The position numbers and the translations under genes were made by a program. 64,000 bases of DNA, taken from contig CAYTUG010000005.1 in the NCBI GenBank assembly GCA_964441275.1, positions 8,791-72,790 of the forward strand, written 5' to 3'. The notes below the pieces were generated by a model, which saw only the letters and a list, made by a program, of their open reading frames with translations, was not told where the DNA came from and did no database searches. Every line of letters begins with the position of its first letter. The stretch's first letter is position 1. This document shows, piece after piece, positions 49,157 through 64,000 of the stretch. This DNA comes from an uncultured Christensenellaceae bacterium (lineage in GTDB: Bacteria; Bacillota; Clostridia; Christensenellales; SZUA-584).

Positions 49157-49214
49157 CTCTACCTTAAATTGATTTCAGTCCTTCGCAACTTTAAAATCTA
49201 CATCATCCAATGCG

Positions 49215-49440
49215 GCAAAATGCTTTTTTCCATACTTTATCTTCAAGTCCTCTCAGCCGCACAAATCAAAGCGCCGCAAGGAGCCTTTCATCAATAGACT
49301 GGCAAAGGCGGATGGGCGATGTATCAAGCACTGGATGAACAACTATCCAAGAAGGATGTTTGGATACAGAACAGCAGACGAGGTGTTTGCGGCTTAAAAT
49401 GGACTGGGTTCTTATGGTGGGCAATTAAACTTGCAATTTA
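49215..49440 (+). mobile_element. IS30-family 3' end remnant (transposase C-terminus plus terminal repeat)
   Basis: ...RKEPFINRLAKADGRCIKHWMNNYPRRMFGYRTADEVFAA* (stop 49395-49397), then GGCAATTAAACTTGCAATTTA at 49420-49440. Confidence 0.6.
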
Positions 49441-49577
49441 TAAAACGTAGAGAACCAGTGCTATTCTCATTGTTTTGGACTTATTTATGTGGTAAAATAC
49501 ATATTAATTCTTTGCTTAACAACATTTGCTTGTTCTAATGAATAAGCAGTATTCTTCGTATATTATGGAGGTGAAAC

Positions 49578-50222: not shown

Positions 50223-50295
50223 ATATATTGAATATAATTTTTGGGTGCTTTCTAAAAATATTTGGGGAGTAAACTCAAGTTATCCGTCAACTTTT

Positions 50296-50748
50296 TTACA
50301 ACTCCACATCACCTCTTTTCTGCTGTTGATTTTTTAGTTGCTCTTGCTTCAAAATACTGTAAACGCTCTTGCATTCCTGTTCTTCAATCTCTGTGCGGAT
50401 AGCCTTTCGCGCAAGGAACAGCCAGGTTTTGACTGTGTTGGCGCTGCACTCCATAACGTCAGAAATTTCATCCACGCTCAATTCATTGAAATAATAAAGC
50501 GCGATTGCCTGACGCTGTACATCGGAAAGACCATCAATAATCCTGCCGAGCCGCTCTTGCAAGTCCGTCCTTTCGGCATAGACAGCCGGCAACCGATTCT
50601 TCGGATTCTTCAGCATCAAAATTTTCGATGTCTTTCTTGCCAAAGCGTACACTTTTTCGTGGTAAATTGCGAGAAGCTCTTCAAAGCTTTTGATATCACC
50701 TTTCTGCGCTTCTATAACCAGCTGCGTTTGCTGCTCTGTCATACCCAT
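50296..50748 (-). CDS. Truncated paralogue of the ECF sigma fusion (N-terminal 38 aa plus sigma-4 only); possibly a pseudogene
   Basis: Identical start MGMTEQQTQLVIEAQKGDIKSFEEL.... It lacks the whole sigma-2 region because of the 184-nt deletion. A 14-codon out-of-frame stretch (KTSKILMLKNPKNR) ends at a +1 C insertion (about 50593) that restores the sigma-4 frame. A novel 25-aa tail follows the duplication boundary. Confidence 0.5.
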   Translation of the reverse strand: MGMTEQQTQLVIEAQKGDIKSFEELLAIYHEKVYALARKTSKILMLKNPKNRLPAVYAERTDLQERLGRIIDGLSDVQRQAIALYYFNELSVDEISDVMECSANTVKTWLFLARKAIRTEIEEQECKSVYSILKQEQLKNQQQKRGDVEL

Positions 50749-51159
50749 AAGTTCGTTTCCCCTTTCATTACATAGATGCGAAAATGCACATTTAGGTTTT
50801 ACGCTTAAATACTATGATGACATATGAAAGCTGCTGTTCTCTAAAGAGGCAATGTTTAGCACTCTTAATTCATTCCCGTTCTATAAGAGGGTTTACTTAA
50901 TCCCGGGATCTTGCGCAAAGATATCATGCTTTAGAGGCTATTATTTGTGGTGGCAAGTTTGTGAGCTTCTGCCTTATCTATTGTATATATAATATTTGTT
51001 GAATAGTCAACTGCCTAAATATTGGTTGCACAAATGTAATATTTTCTATATTAGAAATACAGCCCGGGCAATAATCTGATCAGTTCAGTTGTGTATCACA
51101 TTTCGGAAAGCATGATGCACCAATGTTAATGTACTGTTTTTTTGATGCACTTACATCTG
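50364..51159. repeat. Segmental duplication, copy B
   Basis: See copy A. The deletion junction lies at 50634|50635 (tctt|tctt). Confidence 0.85.
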
Positions 51160-51774
51160 GTGCCAGTGCTTCTCTAATTTGTTGTTTGATTCTCCCTTGT
51201 GTCGTCAATAGCGTCTGTGCTCTTGAGCGCTTTAAATTGTGGGGCTACAATACATATTGGGCACTGAACCACAAAAATAAAATATGCGGGTGCCGGCTAA
51301 TGGGACATTGTTAAGTTGGGAACAAAAACATACCGAAAGGAATATGTTGAAAAGCGCGACACCTATTCTTTTGCCGTGTTACTTAAACATGTGGTGAGAT
51401 TCTTCAGATTCCCCGCAGGATGCGTGCAGACCGGCAACAGTTTTGGGTTCGCCGCTATATGGTGCCTAAACGCAATTTGCCCACTCTCTTTGAGCACTAA
51501 GTCATGTGGGTAGGCATCCGGCATAAGCTCATCCGCCCCTGCACGCCACAACGGCAAGATCGAGCGCAGTCACAGAAAAAATCAGTAGCGGTTTTACCCA
51601 AAGACAGCCTTCCATTCTTTTCTCTGACTTTAAGCACCAGCCTAAAGCTTTCCGATACCACTCAAACAATATACCCGCTCGTTTGCGCACGCAAGCCGGC
51701 TACCTCAAACACAAACAGGTTTAATAACCTACACAACGGGTTTAGCGTGCCGTTGTCTTATAATACCATTTTGG

Positions 51775-52866
51775 CTATTGAGACAAAATATCTGCAATTC
51801 TTTTTGATGCAAACCCGTCTCCGTAAGGGTTTGCCGCAACGCTCATAGATTCATAGGCTTGATTATCCGTCAACAGCCTTTTGAATTCGTTGTAGATATT
51901 TTGCCTGTCCGTTCCGACTAACTTTAACGTTCCCGCCAATATTCCTTCAGGCCTTTCTGTAGTGTCGCGCAGCACCAAAACGGGCTTACCTAAAGACGGC
52001 GCCTCTTCCTGTATGCCTCCGCTGTCCGTCAGCACAATATGTGCGCGCGCAATAAAATTGTGAAAGTCGATCACGCTCAGCGGTTTTATTATGCGAATCC
52101 TGTCCGCTCCCGCCAACACTTTATTTACCGCATCATTGATTGCAGGGTTTAAATGCACCGGATATATAACTTTCAGATCATCAAACTCCTCAACCGCATC
52201 CCTTATAGCCCAAAATATATTTTCCATGGGTTGTCCTATGTTTTCCCGTCTGTGAGCGGTTAAGAGAATTAACCTGCTCCCCTTAGCCCAATCAAGAAGC
52301 GGATGGCTGTACTCTTTCTTTACCGTTGTTTTTAGCGCGTCAATGGCTGTGTTGCCCGTAACATATATGTCTTTTTCGTTTTTCTTTTCTTCGATAAGGT
52401 TTTGTTTCGCCCGTTGCGTAGGCGCAAAATGATATTTCGTAACTATGCCTACCGCCTGCCTGTTAAATTCTTCGGGGTAAGGCGAAAAGATATTATGGGT
52501 TCTAAGCCCGGCCTCGACATGCCCCACGGGTATCTGCAGATAAAAGCAAGCAAGCGCGCTTAAAAATGTTGTTGACGTATCACCATGCACCAGCACAACA
52601 TCGGGTTTAGCTTCCGCCAATACCGGCTGTATCCTTTTAAGCACTTTTGTAGCAATATCAAAAAGCGTTTGATTATGCTCCATCGTCCTCAAATCGTAAT
52701 CTGGAACAACATCAAAAACGTTAAGAACCTGGTCAAGCATCTCTCTGTGCTGGCCTGTCACACACACAACCGTGTTTATAGCTTTTCTTCTTTTTAGCTC
52801 GCTCACCAACGGACACATTTTTATTGCTTCGGGTCTTGTTCCGAAAATTAACATTATCGTCTTCAC
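51775..52866 (-). CDS. wecB: UDP-N-acetylglucosamine 2-epimerase (non-hydrolysing)
   Basis: MLIFGTRPEAIKM..., ...VHGDTSTT..., ...HVEAGLRT..., ...DSGGIQEEAPSLGKPVLVLRDTTERPEG are canonical WecB/MnaA motifs. Confidence 0.9.
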   Translation of the reverse strand: MKTIMLIFGTRPEAIKMCPLVSELKRRKAINTVVCVTGQHREMLDQVLNVFDVVPDYDLRTMEHNQTLFDIATKVLKRIQPVLAEAKPDVVLVHGDTSTTFLSALACFYLQIPVGHVEAGLRTHNIFSPYPEEFNRQAVGIVTKYHFAPTQRAKQNLIEEKKNEKDIYVTGNTAIDALKTTVKKEYSHPLLDWAKGSRLILLTAHRRENIGQPMENIFWAIRDAVEEFDDLKVIYPVHLNPAINDAVNKVLAGADRIRIIKPLSVIDFHNFIARAHIVLTDSGGIQEEAPSLGKPVLVLRDTTERPEGILAGTLKLVGTDRQNIYNEFKRLLTDNQAYESMSVAANPYGDGFASKRIADILSQ

Positions 52867-52895
52867 TTTTTGCCTGCTTTCAGTCGTCTTACCTG

Positions 52896-54500
52896 TTATT
52901 TTGCCGCATAATCATCATACCACGGCAATTCGTCTAATGTAATTATTCTATCGTGATTGAAAACCTTAACAAAATGCTCTAAAGAATTATGCTTATCTGA
53001 AATTTTTTTATCTTGAACCACATACTCTCCGTTCCATATAATAAAAAACGACCAGCACACATTTTCCTCGTACATAAGATCGGGATCGGGTATTGAGCCG
53101 ATTTCGGAAAGTCCCGTTATCGTCTTTTTGTCTGTATAGTTCAACGCCTTTTCAAACCGGTTTAAACGGCTGTCGTAATCATACGGTTTCGTGTACGCGT
53201 CCTCGGCTATAATATCGACATACCCGTCTCCGGGGTACCACTCTTTATCCTCTCCGCTGTATACCCAAATCAAATTGTTCAGATTATGATAACCCGTTAA
53301 ACGATTATACATAAGCTTCCAAAGCTTTTTGTAATTCTCGGCCCCGTGAGCGCCCCACCAAAACCATCCTCCGCAAGCCTCATGCAAGGGCCTCCACAAA
53401 ACAGGTATGTCTTTTTCGGCAAGCGCTCTAAGCTGTTTGGCGATTACATCGATGTCCCGAATTATCAAATCATAGCCGGCACTATCACGCCCGTTTAGCG
53501 CATCGTCCAAATTAAAATTTGTGGCTTGCGTGTAGAAACCTTTCCACCAAGGCGCTGTTTCCGAGTTTATTAAACCTTTAGGGGCATTCCAATGCCACAT
53601 AAAAGTTACAATGCCGCCCATCTCGTGCCATTGCATTGCATATTGCGTCTGTTTAGATTTCGTCCCGTGTTCCACCCTTGTAGGCGAATAATCCACAAAA
53701 TCAAAACCCATAATTGCCGGATATTTGCCCGTGAGCTTATAAAGCTCTTTTACTTCGGGAGATTTAATTCCTAAATCGTTATTGTATTGTCCGGATAAAG
53801 TATATTTGCCGTATTGGTTTACCATATAGCCAAACAGCCTTTTTGTGCTTTCTGTCGCGTTTTTATTGACCAAGCCTTTTTCGACGCAGTACACGTTGGA
53901 ATCTATGGCTTCACTCGATTTTATATTAAGATAGTCAATATAAATATAACCCCAGCCTTTTTGAACAACTACGGAGTTTAAACCTTTTTCGAGCTTTGTT
54001 TTGATTGTGCTTAATGCAAAATCCGCCCCCTTTGTGTACAGCGTGTTGTACAATATTCTTTCGTTTACTATTACAGTGTTATAGCTTTCGTTGTTTATTG
54101 CAGCTGTACAAAAAGCAAGCTCATAAAAACCCGCTTTTGGCACCTGCACGTAAAAAACAATCCTGCTTTTATCGCTGTCTAATTTGCCGACATAGCCGCC
54201 GCTTATGTTTTTGATATTTTCATCCGCATCTTTACCGTAACGGTTAAGGGCTTCTAACTCTGCGTCTTCGGCCTCGTAAATTAAATCAACCAGCGTTTCA
54301 AAATATATTTGGTCGTTATCCTCATGCTGTTTGCGGCCGGGTTCTTCTGCGCTCCCGTTTGGCGACCCGTTTGGTATTACACTATTTTTCGCTTGGTTTA
54401 TTTCGGGTTTATCCATGATGCACCCCCAAAGCAGTTCGGAAAAAAGTATAAACAGCGTAACCGCTAACAAGGATGCCGCAAATATACAAACCCTTCGCAT
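52896..54500 (-). CDS. Membrane-anchored GH26-family glycoside hydrolase with an N-terminal CBM35/CBM6-like module
   Basis: TM anchor. CBM-like YEAEDAEL...ISGGYVGKLD...AGFYEL.... GH26 signature WRPLHEACGGWFWWG, plus WHWNAP and ...DIIAEDAY. Confidence 0.8.
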   Translation of the reverse strand: MRRVCIFAASLLAVTLFILFSELLWGCIMDKPEINQAKNSVIPNGSPNGSAEEPGRKQHEDNDQIYFETLVDLIYEAEDAELEALNRYGKDADENIKNISGGYVGKLDSDKSRIVFYVQVPKAGFYELAFCTAAINNESYNTVIVNERILYNTLYTKGADFALSTIKTKLEKGLNSVVVQKGWGYIYIDYLNIKSSEAIDSNVYCVEKGLVNKNATESTKRLFGYMVNQYGKYTLSGQYNNDLGIKSPEVKELYKLTGKYPAIMGFDFVDYSPTRVEHGTKSKQTQYAMQWHEMGGIVTFMWHWNAPKGLINSETAPWWKGFYTQATNFNLDDALNGRDSAGYDLIIRDIDVIAKQLRALAEKDIPVLWRPLHEACGGWFWWGAHGAENYKKLWKLMYNRLTGYHNLNNLIWVYSGEDKEWYPGDGYVDIIAEDAYTKPYDYDSRLNRFEKALNYTDKKTITGLSEIGSIPDPDLMYEENVCWSFFIIWNGEYVVQDKKISDKHNSLEHFVKVFNHDRIITLDELPWYDDYAAK

Positions 54501-54545
54501 TATTCCGCGTATTCCGTCAGCCGCTTTTTATTGTACCTGCCTTTT

Positions 54546-55394
54546 TCAAACATCGTACTGCATTTCCTGCTTGGCTGTGTCAAGCAACTCGAGAGCATTT
54601 TTATTTCCATCGTCAAACGCCATACCTATTCTCATGTCTAATATAAGCTGCTTTGTATTTAGAACCTCATTTGTGTCTATTTGTGCAATCTTTTCTTTTA
54701 GCCTGTTGCGTATAACCTTAATGTCTTCTTTTTTTGTCAACATAAGCATCCCAAACGTTATTTCATCATCGTCAATCTGATATAGTTCGTCTTCAGCCCT
54801 TGTCGCGCTTCTAACAACTTTTGTAACCTGCGTTACAATCTGCATCATGCCTTCTTTTTTCGAGAGCCTTTCAATTTCCTTTTGGTGTCTAAATTTTATC
54901 AAAAGCACCCCGAAATCAACCTTATAGCGTTTTGCAATGCTCATGTAAATCTTAGCGTCATTTTCAAACGCCCTTAAGTTTTTCAGCTTGGTGACCTCGT
55001 CTAATGTTGATATTGATACCAGCTTCTTTTTCAGATCTTTAACTTGACTTGAAAGAGTGGCCGTTTCCGTAGTAAACAAAGAAAACGCGGTTGTAAGCGC
55101 AGGGGACATAAATACCCAAAAATACACATAGGGTTTAATCAATACCCCCTTTGTAAAGCTAAGCACTATAATATAGGTGATGCTGACCAACAGCAACATA
55201 GTGTTGATAATCAACCCGGTTGTCAAATTCGTAAAGTATGTTATCAAAACTATTATAAAAACAGCCGCGGCAATTATAAAGTTGTCAATAAGATTTTCTT
55301 TCTGGTAAATTAAAAATATAAAGTATATGAAAATCAATACAATCAACGCTATGAAGCTTATATCGGTCTGCATGTTTCTATCTTTCTTTTTCAT
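54546..55394 (-). CDS. Polytopic membrane protein with a degenerate GGDEF domain that keeps an RxxD I-site (YdaK-like c-di-GMP receptor candidate)
   Basis: Four to five TM helices, then DEVTKLKNLRAFEND... (GGDEF-fold start). DDDEI replaces GG(D/E)EF. RAED sits exactly five residues upstream. AGGAGG RBS. Confidence 0.75.
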   Translation of the reverse strand: MKKKDRNMQTDISFIALIVLIFIYFIFLIYQKENLIDNFIIAAAVFIIVLITYFTNLTTGLIINTMLLLVSITYIIVLSFTKGVLIKPYVYFWVFMSPALTTAFSLFTTETATLSSQVKDLKKKLVSISTLDEVTKLKNLRAFENDAKIYMSIAKRYKVDFGVLLIKFRHQKEIERLSKKEGMMQIVTQVTKVVRSATRAEDELYQIDDDEITFGMLMLTKKEDIKVIRNRLKEKIAQIDTNEVLNTKQLILDMRIGMAFDDGNKNALELLDTAKQEMQYDV

Positions 55395-57618
55395 GGCTAT
55401 TCTTCCTCCTGTATCTAATTACTAAAAATACTACCGCCGTAAGCAATATCACAAGTATAGCGGCCGCCACATAGAACAAATTCAATATGTCTTTTCTTTC
55501 AAATATCGATTCGGGCACCTCTTCAAGTTTAGCGTTATCCTCTTTAAATCTGTAAAGGAATATCTCGCTGTTATCCGCCACAAAACCATCTCCGTACAGT
55601 TTCCAAAGCTCTTTGGTGTCTGTGAAATATTTAAGCGAATTTACAAGATAGCCCTTATTTACGCTCGATAAAACAAGAATCGCATTTTTTACGCTTGAAT
55701 ACGGAGATTGTATTATCTGAGCCGCAGATAAAGTTGTTGAATATGCCGGTTCTATCAGCAGCTTTTCGTTTGACATTATTCCTGCGCCGTTATCATAAAA
55801 CTTAAAAAACAGCTTGTCGTTTAGCTTGGCAATAAACTGGTTGTTCTGAAACGTTCCGATTGCGATAACGTTCTTTTTATCAAGATACCCGGTGTCTGAG
55901 GCTCTCACAACCTTAAACTCTCCCGTGTTGTATTTTAAAAATTGCCCGAGAGTTAGCATAAAGCCGCCGACAAGGTTTAAATCCATATCGTTGTTGCCGT
56001 CGGGTATCACCAATACTAAATTATTAAACTCTCCTGCCGATATAAAAGGGTATGGATAATTTTCGAAAAGATAATAAGGCACCTCGACCGAATTAAGTTT
56101 GAGCATAGACTCATCGGAAACATAAGCCCACGGCGTTTCGCCCTGTCTTAACGTGCACCACAAATCCTTTATTTCAAGATCGAACGCCACCGTCAGCGTG
56201 AAGCTTCCCGTTACTTTTGTGTCGGTTGGAATATTTAAAACAATATTGTCGCCCTCTGCTTTTGCCAAAGACAGTTTCTGACTTCCTATAGGGACATCGT
56301 TCACATAAACCGAAACCAACGAACGGTCAAAATCGAGGTTTTTTGAGTATCTGAAATGCAGGTCAATCTCGCTTCCGTAAGCTAACCTTCTGTTGTTTTC
56401 AAAATCTATAAAGTAATCGGCTTTTTGTCTGAACGGACCGTCTAAATATGTTCCGGTTTCGGTAAGCTTTGTATATTGTTTAACGCCTTCTCTTTGCACA
56501 TAAACGTCTTCATCAATTCCCACCATTTTAATATTACCCTTGAGCTGATTCATCGTAACCGGATTTGATAACACGGCGGCGGCTTTTTCAAGCGTTGATT
56601 GGTCTTTACCCGTTACCACCAAAAAATTCGTCTCGCCCGGCAATAGCAATATGCCTGCGTTGGAATCGTCGATTTTCAAGCTTTTTTCAACCTCGGCTGC
56701 CAGTTCGGCGGGCAGTTTGTTAAACCTTGCGATATACATCACATATTTATAAGCCCTTAACTGCGAAGCGCCGCCGGCGATTAAGTTTATATTCTGATAG
56801 TTCTTTGTTGCCTGTTTTGAAATTCCTGCGAGCGCCGTAAGCGCGGCGTCAAGCTCGTCGGTATCGAACGCAGCCGGTATCACAACGGCGCTTTGGTTGT
56901 TTTCCAAAGCGTCTATCGACACGAAGCACGAATAGAAATCGTCAATGCAATCACACCTTTGCGCCGGGCGGTAGGATATTTCCACAAATGATTCTTTAAA
57001 TATATTCATCCAGTTTGCGGTTGTTACATCATCCACGCAGGGATACCCGCTATAAGTTCGAATATATCCTTCAATCCCAATAACATTGTAGCCCTTTTTC
57101 AAATGCTCAATGGGTATCTTTACCGTCAGCTGCCGCCTTGTTCCGTCCGTAACGGGCACCTTCTCGGAATAAAACCTAACTCCGTTTATCAGAATAGTGA
57201 TATCTGATAACAGTTCGGATACCAGTTGAGTTGTGGAAAAACTTAACGTGAACTGAGCGTCGTCTATGTCCCATTCCCCCATGTTAAAGCCTTCCGTTAC
57301 CCTCGAAAAGAGCCCTACCATGTAATGGTCTTTAGAAAAAGACGAAACCGATACCAACCCTCCTTCGCCGACAAACAACACCGGATCAACCGGTTTTGGC
57401 GGCTCAACAATGCTTGGAATCTCGCCCGGTATCTGACCGCTCGGTTCGGATATTGTGGCTTTAGTTTGTTCGTCCGGCTGTGCAGTTTTTTGATCTGCGC
57501 TTTCTAATTCTCCGGCGCCTAAAACAACGTTTTGAGCGGCCGCAGGAAATAATGGAGTTGTTGCCACAAGGCAAACGATGACAATCACAAGTATAATTCT
57601 TTTTTTCAATTGCTTCAA
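55378..57618 (-). CDS. BcsB/YdaN-like periplasmic-type synthase subunit (signal peptide, large beta-rich ectodomain, single C-terminal TM)
   Basis: 746 aa. N-terminal signal peptide ...LFPAAAQN. C-terminal LFYVAAAILVILLTAVVFLVIRYRRK. It lies immediately downstream of the processive GT2. Its size and topology match BcsB-family partners. Confidence 0.6.
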   Translation of the reverse strand: MKQLKKRIILVIVIVCLVATTPLFPAAAQNVVLGAGELESADQKTAQPDEQTKATISEPSGQIPGEIPSIVEPPKPVDPVLFVGEGGLVSVSSFSKDHYMVGLFSRVTEGFNMGEWDIDDAQFTLSFSTTQLVSELLSDITILINGVRFYSEKVPVTDGTRRQLTVKIPIEHLKKGYNVIGIEGYIRTYSGYPCVDDVTTANWMNIFKESFVEISYRPAQRCDCIDDFYSCFVSIDALENNQSAVVIPAAFDTDELDAALTALAGISKQATKNYQNINLIAGGASQLRAYKYVMYIARFNKLPAELAAEVEKSLKIDDSNAGILLLPGETNFLVVTGKDQSTLEKAAAVLSNPVTMNQLKGNIKMVGIDEDVYVQREGVKQYTKLTETGTYLDGPFRQKADYFIDFENNRRLAYGSEIDLHFRYSKNLDFDRSLVSVYVNDVPIGSQKLSLAKAEGDNIVLNIPTDTKVTGSFTLTVAFDLEIKDLWCTLRQGETPWAYVSDESMLKLNSVEVPYYLFENYPYPFISAGEFNNLVLVIPDGNNDMDLNLVGGFMLTLGQFLKYNTGEFKVVRASDTGYLDKKNVIAIGTFQNNQFIAKLNDKLFFKFYDNGAGIMSNEKLLIEPAYSTTLSAAQIIQSPYSSVKNAILVLSSVNKGYLVNSLKYFTDTKELWKLYGDGFVADNSEIFLYRFKEDNAKLEEVPESIFERKDILNLFYVAAAILVILLTAVVFLVIRYRRKNSHEKER

Positions 57619-57648
57619 ATCCTTTCTACAATTATTGTCGCAGCAAGT

Positions 57649-58944
57649 TTAGAAACGTTCGGTCTTGTACCATTTTGTTTTTCTTTTAAATATCACATCC
57701 AACAGGTACTGCCCAAGACCGTAAACCGCCACTACCATCCAAAGTTTGCAGTATGTAAAATACATAAGCAATGTAATAAACAAGTTTGAAAGGCGCATTT
57801 CGCCTTTTTCGGTGGTCAATGTGATAAACACCGATAGTGTAAACAAAAATATGGCCATCAGCCAAAGCAGCGAGCTAAGGCTTGCCAAAGACAGATGCAC
57901 AAGCCCAAGCGTATTTAACAGGAACAGTGTATCTGATACTATCAGCGCGCCCAACAGTATAAAATAAACGGATAGAAAGTAAAGCATATCAAATTTTATT
58001 CTATGTTCTTTTAACGTGAACAGTTTTGGCATGTGCTTTACCATCACGTATATATTCCCCTTCACCCATCTGACCCTTTGCCTGAACCAAACCTTATAGG
58101 TCTGCGGCTCTTGCTCCCAGGTAACGGAAAGCGGCATAATCTTAATCTTATATCCCAAAGCGTATATTCGAAAACTTAACTCTGTATCTTCGGCTATCGC
58201 GTCAATATCCCAACCGCCGATTTCGTCTAAAACATCTCGTCTTATAACAAAATTAGTGCCCGGGATTGTGCATAAATTAAACAGCTGCCACCTTCCCGCC
58301 TGCGCTAACCACTGAAAAGATAACGTTTCAATATTTATAAAACGGGTTAACAGATTAACGTCCCTGTTCCTTGTCCTGAATTTGCCTATAACGGCTGCGA
58401 GCTTATCGTCGCTTTGTATCTCTGCAACAAGATATTTAAGAGCATCGCGTTCCGGGGTGTTATCGGCATCATATACGGCTATATACTCGCCCTTAGCCTG
58501 TCGCAAGCCGATATTAAGCGCGTTGGATTTGCCTTTTCCGCCTGTTTGGCTATCGGTGTTAATAATTTTCAGCGCCCTGTGCGGATTTTTTCCCCGAATC
58601 CGCTCAAGCACGTTGTTGCTATCGTCAGTGGAATTGTCGTTGATTACTATTATTTCGTATCTGTCAATTGGATAGTTTAAATCCAGCAACGAATCCACCG
58701 TAGCCGTTATTACCTTAGCTTCGTTGTGCGCGGGCACAAGAATGCTAACTACCGGAAAGATTTTAATCTCTTTGGTTTTGGATTTGACGGTTTTAATATA
58801 ATACAAATAACCCGCCACCACCAACACCTGGTTTATAAGCAGCAAAGCCCAAATGCATATTAAAGCAATCAAACCCAACAAATCTATATTCAAAAGCCTA
58901 TTTCCTTTTCTTGATAAACTTTTCTCTGTACAATTTATATCCAA
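57649..58944 (-). CDS. Processive family-2 glycosyltransferase (cellulose/PNAG-synthase-like, YdaM-like), no PilZ domain
   Basis: VPAHNEAKVI, GGKGKSNALN, VYDADNT (DxD), IAEDTELSFR (TED), QRVRWVKG (QxxRW), with flanking TM helices. The protein ends after the last TM bundle. Confidence 0.85.
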   Translation of the reverse strand: MDINCTEKSLSRKGNRLLNIDLLGLIALICIWALLLINQVLVVAGYLYYIKTVKSKTKEIKIFPVVSILVPAHNEAKVITATVDSLLDLNYPIDRYEIIVINDNSTDDSNNVLERIRGKNPHRALKIINTDSQTGGKGKSNALNIGLRQAKGEYIAVYDADNTPERDALKYLVAEIQSDDKLAAVIGKFRTRNRDVNLLTRFINIETLSFQWLAQAGRWQLFNLCTIPGTNFVIRRDVLDEIGGWDIDAIAEDTELSFRIYALGYKIKIMPLSVTWEQEPQTYKVWFRQRVRWVKGNIYVMVKHMPKLFTLKEHRIKFDMLYFLSVYFILLGALIVSDTLFLLNTLGLVHLSLASLSSLLWLMAIFLFTLSVFITLTTEKGEMRLSNLFITLLMYFTYCKLWMVVAVYGLGQYLLDVIFKRKTKWYKTERF

Positions 58945-60181
58945 ACAAAATAAGGGTAATAATAATCGCGCCGCTTATAATTACAATAACCGTCAACACC
59001 CGGTTGCCGGCGTCCACCAAAAATTCAAACTGGATTTCATCCTTTCGCCTGTAAGCAAAATTACCGTCAATTTCAGCCTGCATAAAAATATACTCGTCAC
59101 CGGTGACGTTGCGCCTGTAGTCGCCTATCTGGATCCACTTTTTATTAATTTCATTCACTGCCTTTGCAAGCTCGTTTTCATCTTTAAAAACTTCGTATTT
59201 GATAACGGTATCGATTGGAAGGCTTATAAACAGCTCGTTTTGCGGATGAATCGCCGCCAGCATCTTTAAAGAGACCTCGTATGGATGCATACTTTCATCA
59301 AAAACGTGTACGCCGTTTTGCTTGAACGTTTCAAAAACCTTGGGCATTCTAACGTCAATATCTTCCCCAACCAATTCGTTTCCCGTTACTATCGGCTCAT
59401 GCATAATCAGCGAGCCGTTTTTTGATTGTATGTATCTTAATACGTTTACGTAGCGCTTGAATGAGGGATAGTCGGTGTTGTAATAAACCGGCATTATGCT
59501 CATAACAAACGGAATGCCTGCCGAGTAAAAACTCTCGGCAATGGATTCGAGCATTTTTACGCTGTCAAACGGGGACACCTTGTCTATCAAAACGTACATA
59601 AACCCTTCGTCTTTGCGGCCGAAATATTCATTGAGCATTTTAGCCACCGCGAATACGGTAATATCGTCTTTACAAAAATGAGGCGCAAACATTATTCTTT
59701 CGGTAATAACGCCTATCGGATACTCGTTGCCTTCAAAACCGATGCTTCCGATCGCTTCTCCGCAGTATGACTTTATGTGGGTGAGCTCCTTTTCAATTAT
59801 CACGGATTGGGTGTTGTTGTATACGCTTATCTTGGCATGCATTTTTCTTTTAACCGTCTCTGTTTGCACCCCCGGAATCACATTGAAACCATCCCCCAAG
59901 CATACGAATTTTTTGTTTGTCTGCAGCATATCTTTTAGCGGCGCCGTATCCTGCAGCACCACATATTGATATTGCTCTGCCATGCTGCTCGAATACTCCA
60001 CGTTGCTGACAGCCACAGGCTGCATTCCGCAAGCCTTTATTAAATCGGAGATGATCGCCATTTTGTCCTTGTCGTCATACACCAATAATACCCGGTCAGA
60101 TTCCGCAAAAACAATACCCGCGGGCAGAGCGCAAGTGAAAGCGGCTATCAACAGTATAACAATCAAACACTTCTTTATCAT
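58898..60181 (-). CDS. Extracytoplasmic protein with signal peptide and C-terminal TM anchor (YdaL position; possibly DUF2334/deacetylase-like)
   Basis: Signal peptide ...ALPAGIVFAE. C-terminal VLTVIVIISGAIIITLILFGY. It overlaps both neighbours (4 nt and 47 nt). My family assignment is tentative. Confidence 0.6.
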   Translation of the reverse strand: MIKKCLIVILLIAAFTCALPAGIVFAESDRVLLVYDDKDKMAIISDLIKACGMQPVAVSNVEYSSSMAEQYQYVVLQDTAPLKDMLQTNKKFVCLGDGFNVIPGVQTETVKRKMHAKISVYNNTQSVIIEKELTHIKSYCGEAIGSIGFEGNEYPIGVITERIMFAPHFCKDDITVFAVAKMLNEYFGRKDEGFMYVLIDKVSPFDSVKMLESIAESFYSAGIPFVMSIMPVYYNTDYPSFKRYVNVLRYIQSKNGSLIMHEPIVTGNELVGEDIDVRMPKVFETFKQNGVHVFDESMHPYEVSLKMLAAIHPQNELFISLPIDTVIKYEVFKDENELAKAVNEINKKWIQIGDYRRNVTGDEYIFMQAEIDGNFAYRRKDEIQFEFLVDAGNRVLTVIVIISGAIIITLILFGYKLYREKFIKKRK

Positions 60182-61299
60182 TGTATTTCCTTCGTCCTGT
60201 ATGCCAACAGCGCCATAAGGTTGTCAAACGCGTAAAGCTTCAACGTATCGGCATCCGCAAACGCGCCGTACACCTTGCTTTGTTCATCGGTCACCTGAAA
60301 GGCGTTCATTTTGTTTATACATGCCTTAAGCATTTGCGCATCCTCAAGCTCGTCTGCTATCAAAGCGCATATGGCATAGACTGCCGTTGATTGTATTTGG
60401 TTTTTCGGCTTACCGTCACTTTCGTACAAGCCGTAAAAACAGCCGTTTTGAACGGTAGTTTTAACATAGTCAATAGTGGTATCTGGGCACTCGCCTATAC
60501 TTGCTAAGTTAAGAACGCTCAACAACGCCTCAATCATATTGATGTCTCCCGCGCTGTACCTATTTGCAGAATAGCTGTACGAAGCCGCAAATACGGGGAA
60601 TTCGTCGCTTATGTATCCGTTCTTTAGTATTTCGAGCATTGTTTCAAATACTCTTTCCCACTTTTGGTCGTATTTTTCGAGCAACCGAACAGTTTTCAAA
60701 TCTATATAACACAAGGTGATAAAATCGTTGTTCTGGTTGTAACGCTCATCGAACATATCGTACATTCGATTGGCTGTTATGTTGGTATTATACAGCCTGT
60801 CCGCGTACATAATCGCGCTGTTTATGTAGTCGTCACTAAATTTTTCATCCGCTAAAATCAAAGCTCTTACTATCCTTATATCGTCTATAAATGCATTAAC
60901 GCCGTATGCTTCGCCTTTTTGAGACAATCTGTACGATATAATATTTCCGGTATCAAGATGCCGCTCAACAAATTCAAATAAACGCTTAAACAACATCTCA
61001 TCGCCAATATCAACGGCGTACAGCATCAGCAATCCAACAGATTCCGATAAAACTTCGGCGCCGGTCGCAATATCGGCTTCGGTCATACTGTCTGTATAGT
61101 TGGTCCTAATGCCTCCCTCCGGCGTGAGCATATTTTCTTTTAAAAAGTTAAAGCACATCATTTCGCGCGTTGACGTTTTTATGTCTGCGGTTTCGCTTTG
61201 GTAAACGTTTGAGCCGTCCGCCATATTGCCGTTATTTGCGTTTGGTACGCATGAGATGCAAAGCAGCACCAAAGCTATTGCAGCGGCCGCCTTTCTCAT
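60178..61299 (-). CDS. GH8-like (alpha/alpha)6 glycoside hydrolase lipoprotein (YdaJ-like)
   Basis: Lipobox LLCISC. ...VLSESVGLLMLYAV... and ...FIDDIRIVRALILADEKF... resemble the SEGQ.YGM and DGD..IA.AL segments of GH8 enzymes. Confidence 0.5.
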   Translation of the reverse strand: MRKAAAAIALVLLCISCVPNANNGNMADGSNVYQSETADIKTSTREMMCFNFLKENMLTPEGGIRTNYTDSMTEADIATGAEVLSESVGLLMLYAVDIGDEMLFKRLFEFVERHLDTGNIISYRLSQKGEAYGVNAFIDDIRIVRALILADEKFSDDYINSAIMYADRLYNTNITANRMYDMFDERYNQNNDFITLCYIDLKTVRLLEKYDQKWERVFETMLEILKNGYISDEFPVFAASYSYSANRYSAGDINMIEALLSVLNLASIGECPDTTIDYVKTTVQNGCFYGLYESDGKPKNQIQSTAVYAICALIADELEDAQMLKACINKMNAFQVTDEQSKVYGAFADADTLKLYAFDNLMALLAYRTKEIQ

Positions 61300-62837
61300 A
61301 AAGCCCCCCGTTCAAGCCGTTTACAGCTCTCGCCTTCAACATCCGCCACGATTTCAGACGCTTTGCACTTGCTTGTTTGATATCTCCTATCGAAAAAAGC
61401 TACAATGTGTGATATCATAATCACGTTAACCAAGTCGAAAGCCACGTTGTATAAAAACATATGCTTTGCAAGATCGGCGTCCCCCGCGCCGATAACGGGC
61501 ACAATTATTTGAGACAGCCCAATAATTATCAACGCGCCTATTGTAATCTGCTTTAACCTTTTTTTGTACAATAAAGCAAGCGCAACGAACATCCAGATTA
61601 TTATAAATCCAAATGTTTTAGGAGCGCCTATTTCTTTAATGTGGCTGTAATTTGAGAAACTCTCACATTTCGTTTCGGGAGGCAATCCGGTCGAATGCTC
61701 GAAATTGCCCAAATCGGGACGTATTATGTACGCATTTTTTGCCGCGGTTTTCATCATTTCCATGAAAGCGTCCGGATTTGATACATAATGCCCGACAACG
61801 GACAGCACATTGTATTTACTATAAAATTCTTCTTTCAGCTTTTGGTCCTCGGGATCTATTACCGGATACTTATCAAAATATATGTTCTTGTTTAGCAATT
61901 CATATTTATCGTCAATGCCAAACGTTTCCAAGGTTTGCGGAGGGTTGTCGGAAGTCATCATCACCCCTCGGGTCATGGAATGAAAAAGATTTATATTAGT
62001 AAACTCAACGGAGATCAAAGAATAGGTGAAAATGCCCATTACAATCAACACTGCCGATGAAAGCGCTATCAAAGATTTGTACAATCGGCCGTGCGCCCTT
62101 ATAAAAAAGAACAAACACAGTATGCCTAATATTACGCCTACGGGGGCGTACTGCTGTTTGGAAAATGTCAGAATAGCGCCGTTGACTAAAAACCAAGCTA
62201 ATAAAGGGTATTTGTTGCGCCTTCCTTCCGCAATTAAAAGCGCGCATGTAATGGCTGCCATCAAAGAGATATACGCTATTGATTCGGCAAAAAAAGAGCT
62301 GAAATAAGCGGTATATCCCGTATCGGCAAAAATAAAAGTGCAGACGGCGGTTATAAGCAGCACGCTGCCCAAGCGCAATTTATGCGTTAAATAATCCACC
62401 AAAAAGTACAGCACAACCAAAAAATAGATTGTCATTACAAGCCCCAAAAAGCGCAAGTCAAATATGTTGCTGTTTCCGGTAAAAAGCTTGTTGAGCCAAA
62501 TGGCAGGCTGAATAAATATAAACTGAGAAGTAAAAACGGAATTGCTGTATTCGTTATAATACTGGGCTATACCATATTCTTTAATGAAATACCCGTTATA
62601 TAAAAGTTCGCTGTTCTCGGGCAAATCGTACAGACCTTCGCCATATATAATCCTTGCATAGTCTCCGTTATCTTCCATCCCGACATATGGCGGTAAAAAG
62701 AGCACTGAAACTATAATAATTCCGGACAAAAGCACAGCGACAAGAGGCCCTATTGGATGCCGTTTTGTTACTCCTGCAAGCCTTTTGCGTATAGATTGCA
62801 GTTTAGTTTTTAAATTATGCGCTCTTTTGTTTTCCAC
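61296..62837 (-). CDS. Polytopic integral membrane protein of unknown function (about 11 TM helices; GT-C-like or polymer-modifying candidate)
   Basis: 513 aa with multiple hydrophobic helices and two soluble loops. It overlaps the downstream gene by 4 nt. Confidence 0.6.
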   Translation of the reverse strand: MENKRAHNLKTKLQSIRKRLAGVTKRHPIGPLVAVLLSGIIIVSVLFLPPYVGMEDNGDYARIIYGEGLYDLPENSELLYNGYFIKEYGIAQYYNEYSNSVFTSQFIFIQPAIWLNKLFTGNSNIFDLRFLGLVMTIYFLVVLYFLVDYLTHKLRLGSVLLITAVCTFIFADTGYTAYFSSFFAESIAYISLMAAITCALLIAEGRRNKYPLLAWFLVNGAILTFSKQQYAPVGVILGILCLFFFIRAHGRLYKSLIALSSAVLIVMGIFTYSLISVEFTNINLFHSMTRGVMMTSDNPPQTLETFGIDDKYELLNKNIYFDKYPVIDPEDQKLKEEFYSKYNVLSVVGHYVSNPDAFMEMMKTAAKNAYIIRPDLGNFEHSTGLPPETKCESFSNYSHIKEIGAPKTFGFIIIWMFVALALLYKKRLKQITIGALIIIGLSQIIVPVIGAGDADLAKHMFLYNVAFDLVNVIMISHIVAFFDRRYQTSKCKASEIVADVEGESCKRLERGAL

Positions 62838-62921
62838 AGCCCGTTACCTAAAACTCTCCCAAGTATCGCAATATCGAAATTTTAAAACAAATGGGATGTA
62901 TTTGTTCTAACTTACAGTTAT

Positions 62922-64000
62922 TTATTCCGCCGTAACCATACCGGTGTTTTTGTATACCTCTAACGTCTGCCCGGCGGTTTGGCCCGCTAACGCCCCTATG
63001 CGTATAGCGTTATCATCGATAACCTCGAGCACCTTAGTAAGAGTGCCGCGTTTTACATTTCTTATCCAATCGCCTTGCGACAGCCCATGTGCCGTACACT
63101 TTATTATTTGGTCGGTAGTCCCCGCCTCACAAATCAAATCCGGCTGCCTTTTGAGCATTATTATCTGATCGCCCGCCGCCTGGCCTAATATATCTTCGTC
63201 ATTTAATTCTACCAGATATGCGTTTACCACTTTAACGTACCTTATCTGATTGTTTCTTGTGATGTTTATTATGACGTCGTTATCGTCAAGAAGGTGATAC
63301 GCCTTTTTGATATAATGCGAATTTGTAGAGATCCCTTGCGCATAAGCCGTCGTATTTAGATCTTTAGTCGTGTTGAAAGGCAGCACCGGCAGCCCTTGCT
63401 GATCAAACAGACATGCGCAAGGATAGTTTGCCCATGCGTATCTTACGCCTTTGGGCTCCGCGGTATATTCGTCCCAAACCAGCACCGTATTGCCTTGCGT
63501 TTTTGCCTGCGCGGGTATCCACTGTCCGCCGGCATTGAGTATCTCGAACGATACGCTTCCAAAAGCGTCCTGCTTTATTGAAAGCTCTTGCGCGGCTACG
63601 GTTATCCTATAAACATTGCCGTCAAGCGCGTAATCCGTCATACTTGGGCTTTGTTTTGCATATTCCTGTCCGTAAATTAAGTTCATGGCAAGATAAGCAA
63701 GCCTTTCGCCTATCGGTTTTTTGTTTGTTGGATGAATATCAAAAGGGTCTGCGTCTGATAAATCGATTGCCGTTACCAATCCTATGTTATCGTCCGTATT
63801 GGCGACGCGCATCTGAATCTCTCTTATTATCGGCCACGAATCGTTTTCCTGCCCATGGTTTTCTCCGTATCCGGTAAGCTGCACAAGCATTACGGGCAGC
63901 GATGAGTCGCAAAACTCCTCTCTTATTGCTTCGATATAATCCCTCAACAACTGTTCATAATGATATTTGATATGCGCGCTGTTCTCCCCCTGATAATAGA
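62922..64000 (-). CDS. SGNH/sialate-O-acetylesterase-like carbohydrate esterase (5' end outside the window)
   Basis: The frame stays open to the window edge: ...YYQGENSAHIKYHYEQLLRDYIEAIREEF...MLVQL...WPIIREIQ...DIHPTNKKPIGERLA. These are the YQGE(S/N), QL...W..iRe.Q and D.iHP.nK..vG.RL motifs of the 9-O-acetylesterase family. A C-terminal beta-rich extension is present. Confidence 0.65.
   Translation of the reverse strand, partial: YYQGENSAHIKYHYEQLLRDYIEAIREEFCDSSLPVMLVQLTGYGENHGQENDSWPIIREIQMRVANTDDNIGLVTAIDLSDADPFDIHPTNKKPIGERLAYLAMNLIYGQEYAKQSPSMTDYALDGNVYRITVAAQELSIKQDAFGSVSFEILNAGGQWIPAQAKTQGNTVLVWDEYTAEPKGVRYAWANYPCACLFDQQGLPVLPFNTTKDLNTTAYAQGISTNSHYIKKAYHLLDDNDVIINITRNNQIRYVKVVNAYLVELNDEDILGQAAGDQIIMLKRQPDLICEAGTTDQIIKCTAHGLSQGDWIRNVKRGTLTKVLEVIDDNAIRIGALAGQTAGQTLEVYKNTGMVTAE

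What the first reader, a model, noticed from the sequence alone, without database searches (positions are those of the whole stretch)
54546..61299. Clostridial counterpart of the B. subtilis ydaJKLMN exopolysaccharide machine (GH8-like, YdaL-like, GT2, BcsB-like, degenerate GGDEF), whose polymer is still unidentified
Seen in sequence: five consecutive minus-strand genes with 4-47 nt overlaps or short gaps. They encode:
- a GH8-like lipoprotein;
- a secreted, TM-anchored protein;
- a processive GT2 with DxD/TED/QRVRW motifs and no PilZ domain;
- a 746-aa BcsB-like subunit with a C-terminal TM helix;
- a polytopic degenerate-GGDEF protein.

Established knowledge: the same five functions make up the B. 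subtilis ydaJ-N operon. There YdaK (degenerate GGDEF with an intact I-site) is a c-di-GMP receptor needed for YdaLMN-dependent production of an EPS of unknown structure.

Inference: this is a Yda-type, c-di-GMP-gated synthase-dependent EPS system. Here the receptor gene has moved to the 3' side of the synthase genes. The product, its linkage and its role are unknown in any organism.
Basis: partly seen in the sequence, partly recalled or inferred. Interest (0 to 1): 0.62.

Follow-up and report, generated by a model that had tools for sequence, protein, structure and literature searches.

The report
Listeria-type Pss exopolysaccharide operon in Clostridia
This is an intact clostridial copy of the c-di-GMP-switched sugar-polymer machine best known from Listeria (pssA-E plus pssZ), whose product is already known there, so it is a new member of a known system and not a machine with an unidentified polymer.

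Summary
The five minus-strand genes are real and carry the stated motifs. The unit has a sixth gene: a 513-aa membrane glycosyltransferase (61296-62837) overlaps the first gene by 4 nt.

All six proteins match the Listeria Pss system in order: PssA 34%, PssZ-type GH126 hydrolase, PssB 25%, PssC 65.5%, PssD 34%, PssE 33%. Bacillus Yda proteins are much more distant (YdaM 46%, YdaN 23%, YdaK 20%, no PssA). In a synthase tree, a 100/100 branch separates the Yda type from 82 Pss-type loci that include the window. Having the receptor gene last is the normal Pss order.

The Listeria polymer is known: a beta-1,4-ManNAc chain with alpha-1,6-galactose branches. The genome's only UDP-GlcNAc 2-epimerase gene lies in this cluster, and the PssA homologue belongs to the WsfD family, which branches ManNAc. 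I therefore predict a Pss-like ManNAc polymer, switched on when c-di-GMP binds the RAED I-site of the degenerate GGDEF protein. This prediction is inferred, not shown.

Verdict: observation confirmed; interpretation partly supported; new member of a known kind. Modest extras are a co-inherited CBM35-GH26 enzyme and a 1255-aa surface O-acetylesterase.

The parts
61296..62837 (-). pssA homologue. A 513-aa polytopic GT-C-type glycosyltransferase of the WsfD family. Predicted to add the alpha-1,6-hexose branch to ManNAc outside the membrane.
   Evidence: NCBIfam NF051875 glycan_WsfD at 2.4e-139, 465 bits against a cut-off of 80. 34% identity over 507 aa to L. costaricensis PssA, E 1e-95. About 9-10 TM segments and a conserved DNGD loop after TM1. 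The AF2 model (pLDDT 80.8) has only GT-C enzymes among its top 25 PDB matches: STT3, PglB, AglB, DPY19, ALG3/9, PMT and ArnT. It is the single copy in the genome. It overlaps the next gene by 4 nt.
60178..61299 (-). pssZ-type GH126 glycoside hydrolase. 373 aa, with a signal peptide and a lipobox-like LCISC.
   Evidence: PDB 3REN at 3.6e-53 and 6R2M (PssZ) at 1.3e-12. The GH126 invariants E84/D136/R139/Y194/Y307 (PMC7479077) correspond to E86, D139, R142, Y198 and Y308 here. 26% identity to YdaJ, E 1e-25.
58898..60181 (-). pssB homologue. 427 aa: signal/TM anchor, a flavodoxin- or GATase-like domain, a CE4-like (DUF2334) domain and a C-terminal TM helix.
   Evidence: Pfam DUF2334 at 3.4e-8. 25% identity over 303 aa to PssB, E 5e-23. 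AF2 model pLDDT 83.5. Foldseek matches Agd3 6NWZ, SpPgdA 2C1G and other CE4 deacetylases, plus GATase domains. The Asp-His-His metal triad is not conserved in the family alignment.
57649..58944 (-). pssC homologue. Processive membrane GT2 synthase with no PilZ domain. The likely start is TTG at 58893 (414 aa).
   Evidence: Pfam GT2 families. DADN, EDTE and QRVRW motifs. 65.5% identity over 412 aa to PssC (561 bits), against 45.9% to YdaM. Tree placement in the Pss clade. The PgaC_IcaA and CelA models score far below their cut-offs. RBS and start at 58893.
55378..57618 (-). pssD homologue. 746-aa BcsB-like extracytoplasmic subunit with a C-terminal TM anchor.
   Evidence: PF03170 at 7.8e-39. 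34% identity over 656 aa to PssD, E 1e-115, against 22.7% and E 4e-10 to YdaN. TM segment at 716-734. Only BcsB-family gene in the genome.
54546..55394 (-). pssE homologue. 282 aa, about 4 TM segments followed by a degenerate GGDEF domain (DDDEI) with an intact RxxD I-site (R199-D202). Predicted c-di-GMP receptor.
   Evidence: PF00990 at 1.7e-10. 33% full-length identity to PssE, E 4e-55, against 20% to YdaK. RxxD is kept in 78 of 79 Pss-type and 11 of 11 Yda-type homologues, while the GGDEF motif is degenerate in all.
52896..54500 (-). Membrane-anchored CBM35 + GH26 enzyme, 45 nt downstream of pssE. Co-inherited with the cluster in this clade; its role in the polymer is unproven.
   Evidence: PF02156 at 3.8e-79 and CBM_35 at 4.4e-13. 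PDB 3ZM8 endo-beta-1,4-mannanase at 5.5e-88. Catalytic HEA and SEIG motifs and an N-terminal TM segment. Present between E and wecB in 13 related loci. Among 61 relatives, close orthologues occur only in the 3 genomes that have the cluster, on the same contigs.
51775..52866 (-). wecB/mnaA, a non-hydrolysing UDP-GlcNAc 2-epimerase that supplies UDP-ManNAc. Last gene of the co-oriented block.
   Evidence: TIGR00236 at 3.3e-151. Only copy in the genome. wecB lies next to pss-type clusters in 32 loci, in at least four different arrangements.
62922..64000 (-). 3' end of a 1255-aa gene that runs off the window. It encodes a TM-anchored surface protein with a sialate-O-acetylesterase-like (SASA) domain, 84 nt upstream of pssA.
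   Evidence: Full ORF is L084:113-3880. PF03629 at 4.6e-17. PDB 7KMM at 2.2e-48. Conserved directly upstream of pssA in 12 of the closest loci, L002-L013 except L010 whose flank is cut short.

Best explanation
Window 54546-62837 (minus strand) is a six-gene orthologue of the Listeria Pss exopolysaccharide system, in the order pssA-pssZ-pssB-pssC-pssD-pssE.

Proposed mechanism. Component identities are shown by homology; the steps themselves are inferred.
1. WecB converts UDP-GlcNAc to UDP-ManNAc.
2. The membrane GT2 PssC polymerises and translocates a beta-1,4-ManNAc chain, working with the BcsB-like PssD on the outer face.
3. Synthesis is off until c-di-GMP, made by one of the genome's roughly 7 canonical GGDEF proteins, binds the RAED I-site of the catalytically dead GGDEF domain of membrane protein PssE. 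PssE then activates PssC/D.
4. Outside the membrane, the WsfD-family GT-C enzyme PssA adds alpha-1,6-hexose branches (galactose in Listeria). The donor would be a polyprenyl-phosphate hexose, probably made by the single GtrB-like enzyme encoded elsewhere in the genome.
5. The CE4-like PssB and the GH126 hydrolase PssZ process or trim the nascent polymer and are needed for cell-associated EPS.

B. subtilis ydaJKLMN is a more distant sister type of the same kind of machine.
For: - Homology to all five L. costaricensis Pss proteins, in the same gene order: A 34% (E 1e-95), B 25% (5e-23), C 65.5% (561 bits), D 34% (1e-115), E 33% over the full length (4e-55).
- In a tblastn search of the whole genome, every Pss protein has its best hit in this cluster.
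- The GH126 protein matches PssZ and CPF_2247 structures and keeps all family-invariant residues.
- 82 loci from Clostridia, Acetobacterium, Paenibacillus, Vagococcus and Listeria share A + B-C-D-E with E last.
- In the GT2 tree, the Yda type (Z-E-B-C-D, no A) is split off by a 100/100 branch, and the window sits in an A-Z-B-C-D-E clade.
- In Velocimicrobium the A, Z and B homologues are fused in one 1254-aa ORF.
- RxxD is conserved in 78 of 79 PssE homologues, with a degenerate GGDEF motif in all.
- The genome has 9 GGDEF hits, 7 of them strong.
- wecB is the genome's only copy and lies in the block. It is linked to pss-type clusters in several independent arrangements.
- PssA belongs to the WsfD family and has a GT-C fold. 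P. alvei WsfD is the putative alpha-1,6-glucosyltransferase acting on ManNAc with a lipid-linked donor (PMC2943079).
- There is one GtrB/ArnC-like gene in the genome.
[quoted passage not shown] The Pss polymer structure is known (PMC10172500, PMC13492145). PssB is needed for cell-associated EPS (PMC6307706).
Against: - Nothing here is biochemical. c-di-GMP binding, polymer composition and activity are all inferred from homology.
- PssB, PssD and PssE are only 25-34% identical to the Listeria proteins.
- The window GH126 is closer to CPF_2247, annotated as a possible amylase, than to PssZ.
- The branch sugar cannot be read from sequence. WsfD itself is proposed to transfer glucose, not galactose.
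- The PssB family lacks a conserved CE4 metal triad, so its role may not be deacetylation.
- The extra GH26 and O-acetylesterase genes suggest the polymer may be modified differently from the Listeria one.
- No promoter, terminator or riboswitch could be assigned, so the extent of the operon is inferred from gene spacing and synteny alone.
Confidence: 0.82

Rival explanations
1. One reading: this is a Yda-type (B. subtilis ydaJKLMN) machine with a relocated receptor gene, making a polymer that is unidentified in any organism.
For: The five domain types are shared. YdaJ, YdaL and YdaM find their best genomic hits in this cluster. YdaK-type proteins keep the same RxxD and degenerate-GGDEF logic. 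The B. subtilis polymer is still structurally unsolved (PMC5422440, PMC13274460).
Against: - The Yda proteins are far more distant than the Pss proteins.
- YdaK's best hits are other GGDEF genes, and YdaN finds nothing at 1e-3.
- The Yda type is a separate 100/100 clade with a different gene order.
- The Yda type has no PssA. The WsfD family is absent from the B. subtilis control genome.
- The polymer of the closer Listeria system is known.
Confidence: 0.08
2. The machine is Pss-type, but the polymer differs from the Listeria one. It could carry a glucose or other hexose branch, or O-acetyl groups, or be remodelled by the co-inherited GH26 and O-acetylesterase. This is a variant of the best explanation and not exclusive of it.
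For: - WsfD, the family's named member, is proposed to add glucose (PMC2943079).
- A nine-gene block, esterase-A-Z-B-C-D-E-GH26-wecB, is conserved in the closest relatives and is absent from Listeria, Paenibacillus and Acetobacterium.
- GH26 orthologues occur only alongside the cluster among 61 relatives.
- The accessory proteins are only 25-34% identical to those of Listeria.
Against: The synthase is 65.5% identical to PssC, and wecB linkage points to the same ManNAc backbone. Co-inheritance of GH26 and the esterase within one clade could be a single historical accident. GH26 looks like an ordinary CBM35-mannanase.
Confidence: 0.3
3. The cluster is a PNAG (PgaC/IcaA-type) or cellulose (BcsA/B-type) synthase.
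For: The best NCBIfam hit of the GT2 is PgaC_IcaA (185 bits), with CelA also hit. The partner protein is BcsB-like. PssB has a CE4-like fold, as do the PNAG deacetylases.
Against: The scores are far below the curated cut-offs: 185 against 422 for PgaC_IcaA, and 95 against 699 for CelA. There is no PilZ domain and no PgaD/IcaD. The GT2 is 65.5% identical to PssC, whose product is neither PNAG nor cellulose. The cluster carries a dedicated wecB.
Confidence: 0.03

Closest known systems
Listeria monocytogenes Pss system (pssA-E, lmo0527-0531, plus pssZ lmo1913). c-di-GMP-induced ManNAc-Gal exopolysaccharide.
   Same: All six proteins have homologues here, and A, B, C, D and E are colinear with the receptor gene last. 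The GT2 is 65.5% identical. PssE is the same kind of protein: a TM region plus a degenerate GGDEF domain with RxxD. PssZ is GH126 in both.
   Different: - pssZ lies inside the operon, between A and B; in Listeria it sits in the dgcAB-pdeC operon.
- wecB is in the cluster and is the genome's only copy.
- A CBM35-GH26 enzyme and a 1255-aa O-acetylesterase flank the core.
- PssB is about 80 aa shorter.
- The host is an uncultured anaerobic member of Clostridia with a 1.8-Mb genome, and only 4 of 23 genomes of the same genus carry the cluster.
Bacillus subtilis ydaJKLMN (YdaK-gated EPS of unsolved structure).
   Same: The same five protein types: GH126-like YdaJ, I-site receptor YdaK, DUF2334 YdaL, GT2 YdaM and BcsB-like YdaN. 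The c-di-GMP gating logic is the same.
   Different: The gene order is J-K-L-M-N, with the receptor second. There is no PssA/WsfD homologue. Identities are much lower: 46% (M), 23% (N), 20% (K), 26% (J), and 28% over 95 aa (L). The GT2 forms a separate clade with 100/100 support.
Paenibacillus alvei WsfD/WsfH branching system of the S-layer glycan.
   Same: The 513-aa protein scores 465 bits on the WsfD model. WsfD is proposed to add an alpha-1,6-hexose to ManNAc from a lipid-linked donor. That is the same linkage and acceptor as the Gal branch of the Pss EPS.
   Different: WsfD acts on an O-glycan built on a lipid carrier, not on a synthase-made EPS, and the proposed sugar is glucose. No WsfH-like gene lies in this cluster. 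One GtrB-like gene lies elsewhere in the genome.
Clostridium perfringens CPF_2247 (PDB 3REN), founding member of GH126.
   Same: It is the closest solved relative of the 373-aa hydrolase (E 3.6e-53), with identical invariant residues.
   Different: CPF_2247 was described as a probable alpha-amylase. Here the context argues for an EPS-specific hydrolase like PssZ.

Membership tests
Listeria-type Pss EPS system | PssC-type processive GT2 synthase (D, D, D, QxxRW; multi-TM; no PilZ) | tested here: met
   65.5% identity over 412 aa to PssC. DADN, EDTE and QRVRW motifs. No PilZ domain. Lies in the Pss clade of the GT2 tree.
Listeria-type Pss EPS system | BcsB-like PssD encoded directly after the synthase, anchored by a C-terminal TM helix | tested here: met
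   PF03170 at 7.8e-39. 34% identity and E 1e-115 to PssD. TM segment at 716-734.
Listeria-type Pss EPS system | PssE: membrane protein with a degenerate GGDEF domain and an intact RxxD I-site, encoded last | tested here: met
   RAED-ELYQI-DDDEI. 33% full-length identity to PssE. RxxD is kept in 78 of 79 family members. It is the last gene of the core.
Listeria-type Pss EPS system | PssA (polytopic, WsfD/YfdI-like) and PssB (DUF2334) encoded upstream of the synthase | tested here: met
   A: 34% identity, E 1e-95. B: 25% identity, E 5e-23. Both match the expected folds.
Listeria-type Pss EPS system | Dedicated GH126 hydrolase (PssZ) | tested here: met
   PDB 6R2M at 1.3e-12 and 3REN at 3.6e-53. 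All five GH126 invariant residues are kept.
Listeria-type Pss EPS system | The PssE homologue binds c-di-GMP and is required for synthesis | not testable with these tools
   Only the I-site motif and the presence of GGDEF cyclases in the genome could be checked.
Listeria-type Pss EPS system | Product is a beta-1,4-ManNAc chain with alpha-1,6-Gal branches | not testable with these tools
   Indirect only: the genome's sole wecB lies in the cluster, and PssA is in the WsfD family.
B. subtilis Yda-type system | Gene order ydaJ-K-L-M-N (receptor second) and no PssA-type gene | tested here: not met
   The window order is A-Z-B-C-D-E. Eleven Yda-type loci, including L085 with its lrpC-topB ... kimA-ydaP flanks, have Z-E-B-C-D. 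The WsfD family is absent from the B. subtilis control genome.
B. subtilis Yda-type system | Reciprocal best similarity of all five proteins to YdaJ-N | tested here: not met
   YdaJ, L and M hit the cluster. YdaK's best hits are other GGDEF genes, and YdaN has no hit at 1e-3. Pss proteins score higher than Yda proteins for all four families present in both reference sets (B, C, D, E); the GH126 protein scores higher against YdaJ (96 bits) than against PssZ (51 bits).
Cellulose synthase (BcsA/BcsB) | BcsA-type synthase with a C-terminal PilZ domain that reaches the CelA/BcsA model cut-offs | tested here: not met
   No PilZ domain. TIGR03030 scores 95 bits against a cut-off of 699; NF008558 scores 86 against 992.
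PNAG synthase (PgaC/IcaA) | Reaches the TIGR03937 cut-off, with PgaD/IcaD and PgaB/IcaB partners | tested here: not met
   185 bits against a cut-off of 422. No PgaD/IcaD partner; the partner is BcsB-like.
CAZy GH126 | Invariant Glu84, Asp136, Arg139, Tyr194 and Tyr307 (CPF_2247 numbering) | tested here: met
   E86, D139, R142, Y198 and Y308 in the window protein, from the HMMER alignment to 3REN (residue list from PMC7479077).
CE4 polysaccharide deacetylase (for the PssB homologue) | Asp-His-His metal triad and catalytic Asp/His | tested here: inconclusive
   The fold matches CE4 enzymes. The candidate Asp, Glu and His columns are kept in only 16-19 of 28 family members, and the window protein has K in place of the common E.

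The most novel reading that the evidence does not exclude
In this clade of Clostridia the Pss core is part of a nine-gene unit. Within it, the membrane-anchored CBM35-GH26 'mannanase' and the 1255-aa surface O-acetylesterase would act on the ManNAc polymer itself. That would make the GH26 enzyme a beta-1,4-N-acetylmannosaminidase, a new specificity for the family, and the polymer an O-acetylated or otherwise remodelled Pss variant. By extension, GH126 enzymes such as CPF_2247 would be EPS hydrolases and not amylases.
Probability: 0.2. Interest if true: 0.55.

Novelty: new member of a known kind. Interest (0 to 1): 0.3.

Why it matters
It replaces 'a machine whose polymer nobody knows' with a testable prediction: a Listeria-type ManNAc-hexose exopolysaccharide, gated by c-di-GMP, in an uncultured anaerobe of the Clostridia.

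It also shows three wider points.
- Pss-type clusters are spread thinly across Bacillota. BcsB-like hits occur in about 3.5% of sampled Clostridia genomes, and also in Acetobacterium, Paenibacillus and Vagococcus.
- The B. subtilis Yda operon is a diverged side branch that lacks the branching enzyme.
- PssA can be assigned to the WsfD family of ManNAc-branching GT-C transferases.

Existing tools for the Listeria polymer, such as PssZ and the PssZ-E72Q fluorescent probe, could be tried directly on such organisms.

Tried and rejected
- A word-based homologue search with the GT2 returned 4988 hits. The top 120 were all at 65% identity or above, so it never reached B. subtilis.
  - I obtained a Yda locus another way: profile search of 401 evenly drawn Bacilli genomes, fetching 12 loci, and recognising L085 by its flanks lrpC-topB ... 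kimA-like-ydaP-like (flanks as described in PMC13274460).
  - L085 is from the B. subtilis group but is not strain 168. Its YdaK motif is SAERF, not SDERI.
- The 'of' argument of the genome search needs a G handle (error).
- Rfam found no riboswitch or other RNA in 48000-64000, or upstream of the esterase gene.
- Promoter and terminator consensus scans were only slightly above shuffled expectation (promoters 44 against 32.3, terminators 18 against 13.7) and gave no usable operon boundaries.
- I looked for a CE4 catalytic triad in PssB and found it not conserved, so I do not call PssB a deacetylase.
- The apparent A-Z fusion in L030 contains a stop codon and was dropped. The Velocimicrobium A-Z-B fusion is real.
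- I did not fetch the genomic context of CPF_2247.

Full report
**Observation**

The ORF listing shows five consecutive minus-strand ORFs at the coordinates given:

| Coordinates | Length |
|---|---|
| 60178-61299 | 373 aa |
| 58898-60181 | 427 aa |
| 57649-58944 | 431 aa |
| 55378-57618 | 746 aa |
| 54546-55394 | 282 aa |

Pfam gives, in that order: weak Glyco_hydro_8, DUF2334, GT2 families (2.8e-32, no PilZ), BcsB (7.8e-39) and GGDEF (1.7e-10). The translations carry DADN, EDTE and QRVRW in the GT2. The GGDEF protein reads RAED-ELYQI-DDDEI, which is an RxxD I-site five residues before a dead GGDEF motif. Hydropathy supports the stated topologies.

1. The 'GH8-like' protein is GH126.
   - It matches PDB 3REN (C. 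perfringens CPF_2247, founding GH126 member) at 3.6e-53 and 6R2M (Listeria PssZ) at 1.3e-12.
   - It keeps all five family-invariant residues listed in PMC7479077 (E86, D139, R142, Y198, Y308).
2. The 47-nt overlap disappears if the GT2 starts at TTG 58893, behind AAGGAAA. That start gives the 414-aa protein on record.
3. A sixth gene, 61296-62837 (513 aa), overlaps the GH126 gene by 4 nt and belongs to the system.

**What it is**

Three points in the surroundings matter.
- The 513-aa protein scores 465 bits (cut-off 80) on NCBIfam's WsfD model.
- The gene after the GGDEF gene encodes a CBM35-GH26 enzyme.
- The next gene is wecB (TIGR00236, 3.3e-151).

The literature points to the Listeria pssA-E operon. 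There, pssC (GT2), pssD (BcsB-like) and pssE (degenerate-GGDEF I-site receptor) lie in this order (PMC4125290).

I fetched the pss locus of L. costaricensis through a PssD-like hit and compared proteins. For a Yda reference I searched 401 evenly drawn Bacilli genomes with a BcsB-like profile and fetched 12 loci. One of them, L085, has lrpC-topB-[361, 282, 574, 420, 709 aa]-kimA-like-ydaP-like. This is the B. subtilis ydaJKLMN neighbourhood described in PMC13274460.

| Window protein | vs Listeria Pss | vs Bacillus Yda |
|---|---|---|
| 513 aa | PssA 34% over 507 aa, 1e-95 | no counterpart |
| 427 aa | PssB 25%, 5e-23 | YdaL 28% over 95 aa, 2e-8 |
| GT2 | PssC 65.5%, 561 bits | YdaM 46%, 386 bits |
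| BcsB-like | PssD 34%, 1e-115, 354 bits | YdaN 23%, 52 bits |
| GGDEF | PssE 33% full length, 4e-55, 170 bits | YdaK 20%, 44 bits |
| GH126 | PssZ 1.3e-12 (PDB) | YdaJ 26%, 1e-25 |

Searched against the whole genome, every Pss protein has its best hit in this cluster. By contrast, YdaK's best hits are other GGDEF genes, and YdaN finds nothing at 1e-3.

**Synteny and phylogeny**

A profile scan of species-representative genomes found 294 loci that encode relatives of the BcsB-like protein, and the best 80 were fetched. Gene orders by lineage:

| Lineage | Order |
|---|---|
| Clostridia labelled Christensenellaceae or Oscillospiraceae | A-Z-B-C-D-E |
| Paenibacillus | Z-A-B-C-D-E |
| Acetobacterium | A-B-C-D-E, then wecB and Z |
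| Listeria | A-B-C-D-E (Z elsewhere) |
| Bacillus Yda type (11 loci) | Z-E-B-C-D, no A |

A maximum-likelihood tree of 93 GT2 sequences separates the 11 Yda-type loci from the 82 Pss-type loci by a 100/100 branch. The window sits in an A-Z-B-C-D-E clade. So receptor-last is the rule, and Yda is the rearranged, diverged branch that lacks PssA. The WsfD family is also absent from the B. subtilis control genome. In Velocimicrobium porci the A, Z and B homologues form one 1254-aa ORF, which argues that these three act together.

**Distribution**
- 4 of 23 genomes of the same genus carry the cluster, and none of 38 other relatives in the family or order.
- 14 of 400 evenly drawn Clostridia have a BcsB-like hit.
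- 34 of 401 Bacilli have one: 10 strong, Pss-like, and the rest weak, Yda-like.

**Mechanism**

Shown by homology: the identity of each component.

Taken from the literature on the homologues:
- YdaK needs its RxxD motif (PMC5422440).
- The Listeria polymer is {4)-b-ManpNAc-(1-4)-[a-Galp-(1-6)]-b-ManpNAc-(1-} (PMC10172500, PMC13492145).
- PssZ hydrolyses that polymer.
- A pssB mutant lacks cell-associated EPS (PMC6307706).

Inferred here:
- c-di-GMP comes from the genome's own cyclases. There are 9 GGDEF hits, 7 of them strong, and the cluster's is the weakest.
- It binds R199/D202 of the PssE homologue. RxxD is kept in 78 of 79 homologues, while the active-site motif is degenerate in all. This switches on PssC/PssD.
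- The backbone is predicted to be ManNAc. The synthase is 65.5% identical to PssC. wecB is the only copy in the genome and sits in the block. wecB has also become linked to pss-type clusters in at least four different arrangements.
- The PssA homologue is a GT-C enzyme. Its AF2 model has pLDDT 80.8, and its top 25 PDB matches are all lipid-linked-donor GT-C transferases. An invariant DNGD follows TM1. It belongs to the WsfD family.
- P. alvei WsfD is the putative alpha-1,6-glucosyltransferase that acts on ManNAc using a lipid-linked sugar made by WsfH (PMC2943079). This is the same linkage and acceptor as the Gal branch of the Pss polymer. I therefore assign it the branching step.
- One GtrB/ArnC-like gene (G000:C2:81344-82267) is a candidate to make the donor.
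- The PssB homologue models (pLDDT 83.5) as a flavodoxin- or GATase-like domain plus a CE4-like domain. The CE4 metal triad is not conserved, so deacetylase activity is doubtful.

**Accessory genes**

In the closest relatives (L002-L013) the block esterase-A-Z-B-C-D-E-GH26-wecB is largely conserved; nine of those twelve loci show all nine genes.
- The GH26 protein resembles CBM35-GH26 endo-beta-1,4-mannanases (3ZM8, 5.5e-88). It keeps the catalytic motifs and has an N-terminal TM segment. Among 61 relatives, close orthologues occur only in the three genomes that carry the cluster, next to it.
- The upstream gene, of which the window holds only the last 342 codons, encodes a 1255-aa TM-anchored protein with a sialate-O-acetylesterase-like domain.

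Whether these two act on the polymer is open. This is the most novel reading that the evidence leaves standing.

**Comparison and verdict**

This is a member of the Listeria-type Pss family by every sequence-testable criterion. It is not a Yda-type operon, a cellulose synthase or a PNAG synthase. The PgaC_IcaA model scores 185 bits against a cut-off of 422, and the CelA model 95 against 699.

It is wrong on three points: the nearest relative, the 'moved' receptor gene, and the claim that the product is unknown in any organism.

Novelty: a new member of a known kind. Interest is modest.

**Limits**
- There is no biochemical or expression evidence.
- No promoter, terminator or riboswitch could be assigned.

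Noticed in passing
window 62922-64000, continuing to G000:C5:75479 (L084:113-3880): The ORF that looks like a 342-aa 'SASA-like' gene in the window is the 3' end of a 1255-aa gene. The protein has an N-terminal TM anchor, a long middle region with no family hit, and a sialate-O-acetylesterase-like domain (PDB 7KMM, 2e-48). It is conserved directly upstream of pssA in 12 of the closest loci (L002-L013 except L010, whose flank is cut short).
   Followed up: partly
window 52896-54500: A membrane-anchored CBM35-GH26 enzyme lies between pssE and wecB, with gaps of 45 and 29 nt. Among 61 relatives, close orthologues occur only in the genomes that carry the pss cluster, adjacent to it. It may be a hydrolase for the beta-1,4-manno-configured polymer, or simply a co-inherited mannanase.
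   Followed up: partly
L034:3784-7548 (Velocimicrobium porci): The homologues of PssA, the GH126 hydrolase and PssB are fused in a single 1254-aa ORF without stops. wecB precedes it, and C, D and E follow.
   Followed up: yes
L023, L028, L035 (e.g. L023:6009-11834): Three Clostridia loci carry two tandem BcsB-like + GGDEF-receptor pairs (D-E-D-E) after a single synthase gene.
   Followed up: no
L094 (G020:C55:55000-71000): One Bacilli genome has an intermediate arrangement, A-E-B-C-D-Z, with a GT2 59% identical to the window's. In the tree it branches at the base of the Pss-type clade, on a long branch.
   Followed up: no
window 60178-61299 vs PDB 3REN: The cluster's GH126 enzyme is far closer to CPF_2247 (3.6e-53), described as a probable alpha-amylase, than to PssZ (1.3e-12). 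This raises the question of whether CPF_2247 is really an EPS hydrolase. Its genomic context was not examined.
   Followed up: no
G000:C2:81344-82267: This is the single GtrB/ArnC-like polyprenyl-phosphate glycosyltransferase gene in the genome (307 aa, E 1.6e-53 to NF007986, below its cut-off). It is a candidate maker of the lipid-linked hexose donor for the PssA homologue. Its neighbouring genes were not informative.
   Followed up: partly
whole genome G000: The cluster is accessory. Only 4 of 23 same-genus genomes have it, and none of 38 other relatives in the family or order. It lies next to a region that another first-stage note describes as a decayed island with IS30 remnants.
   Followed up: partly
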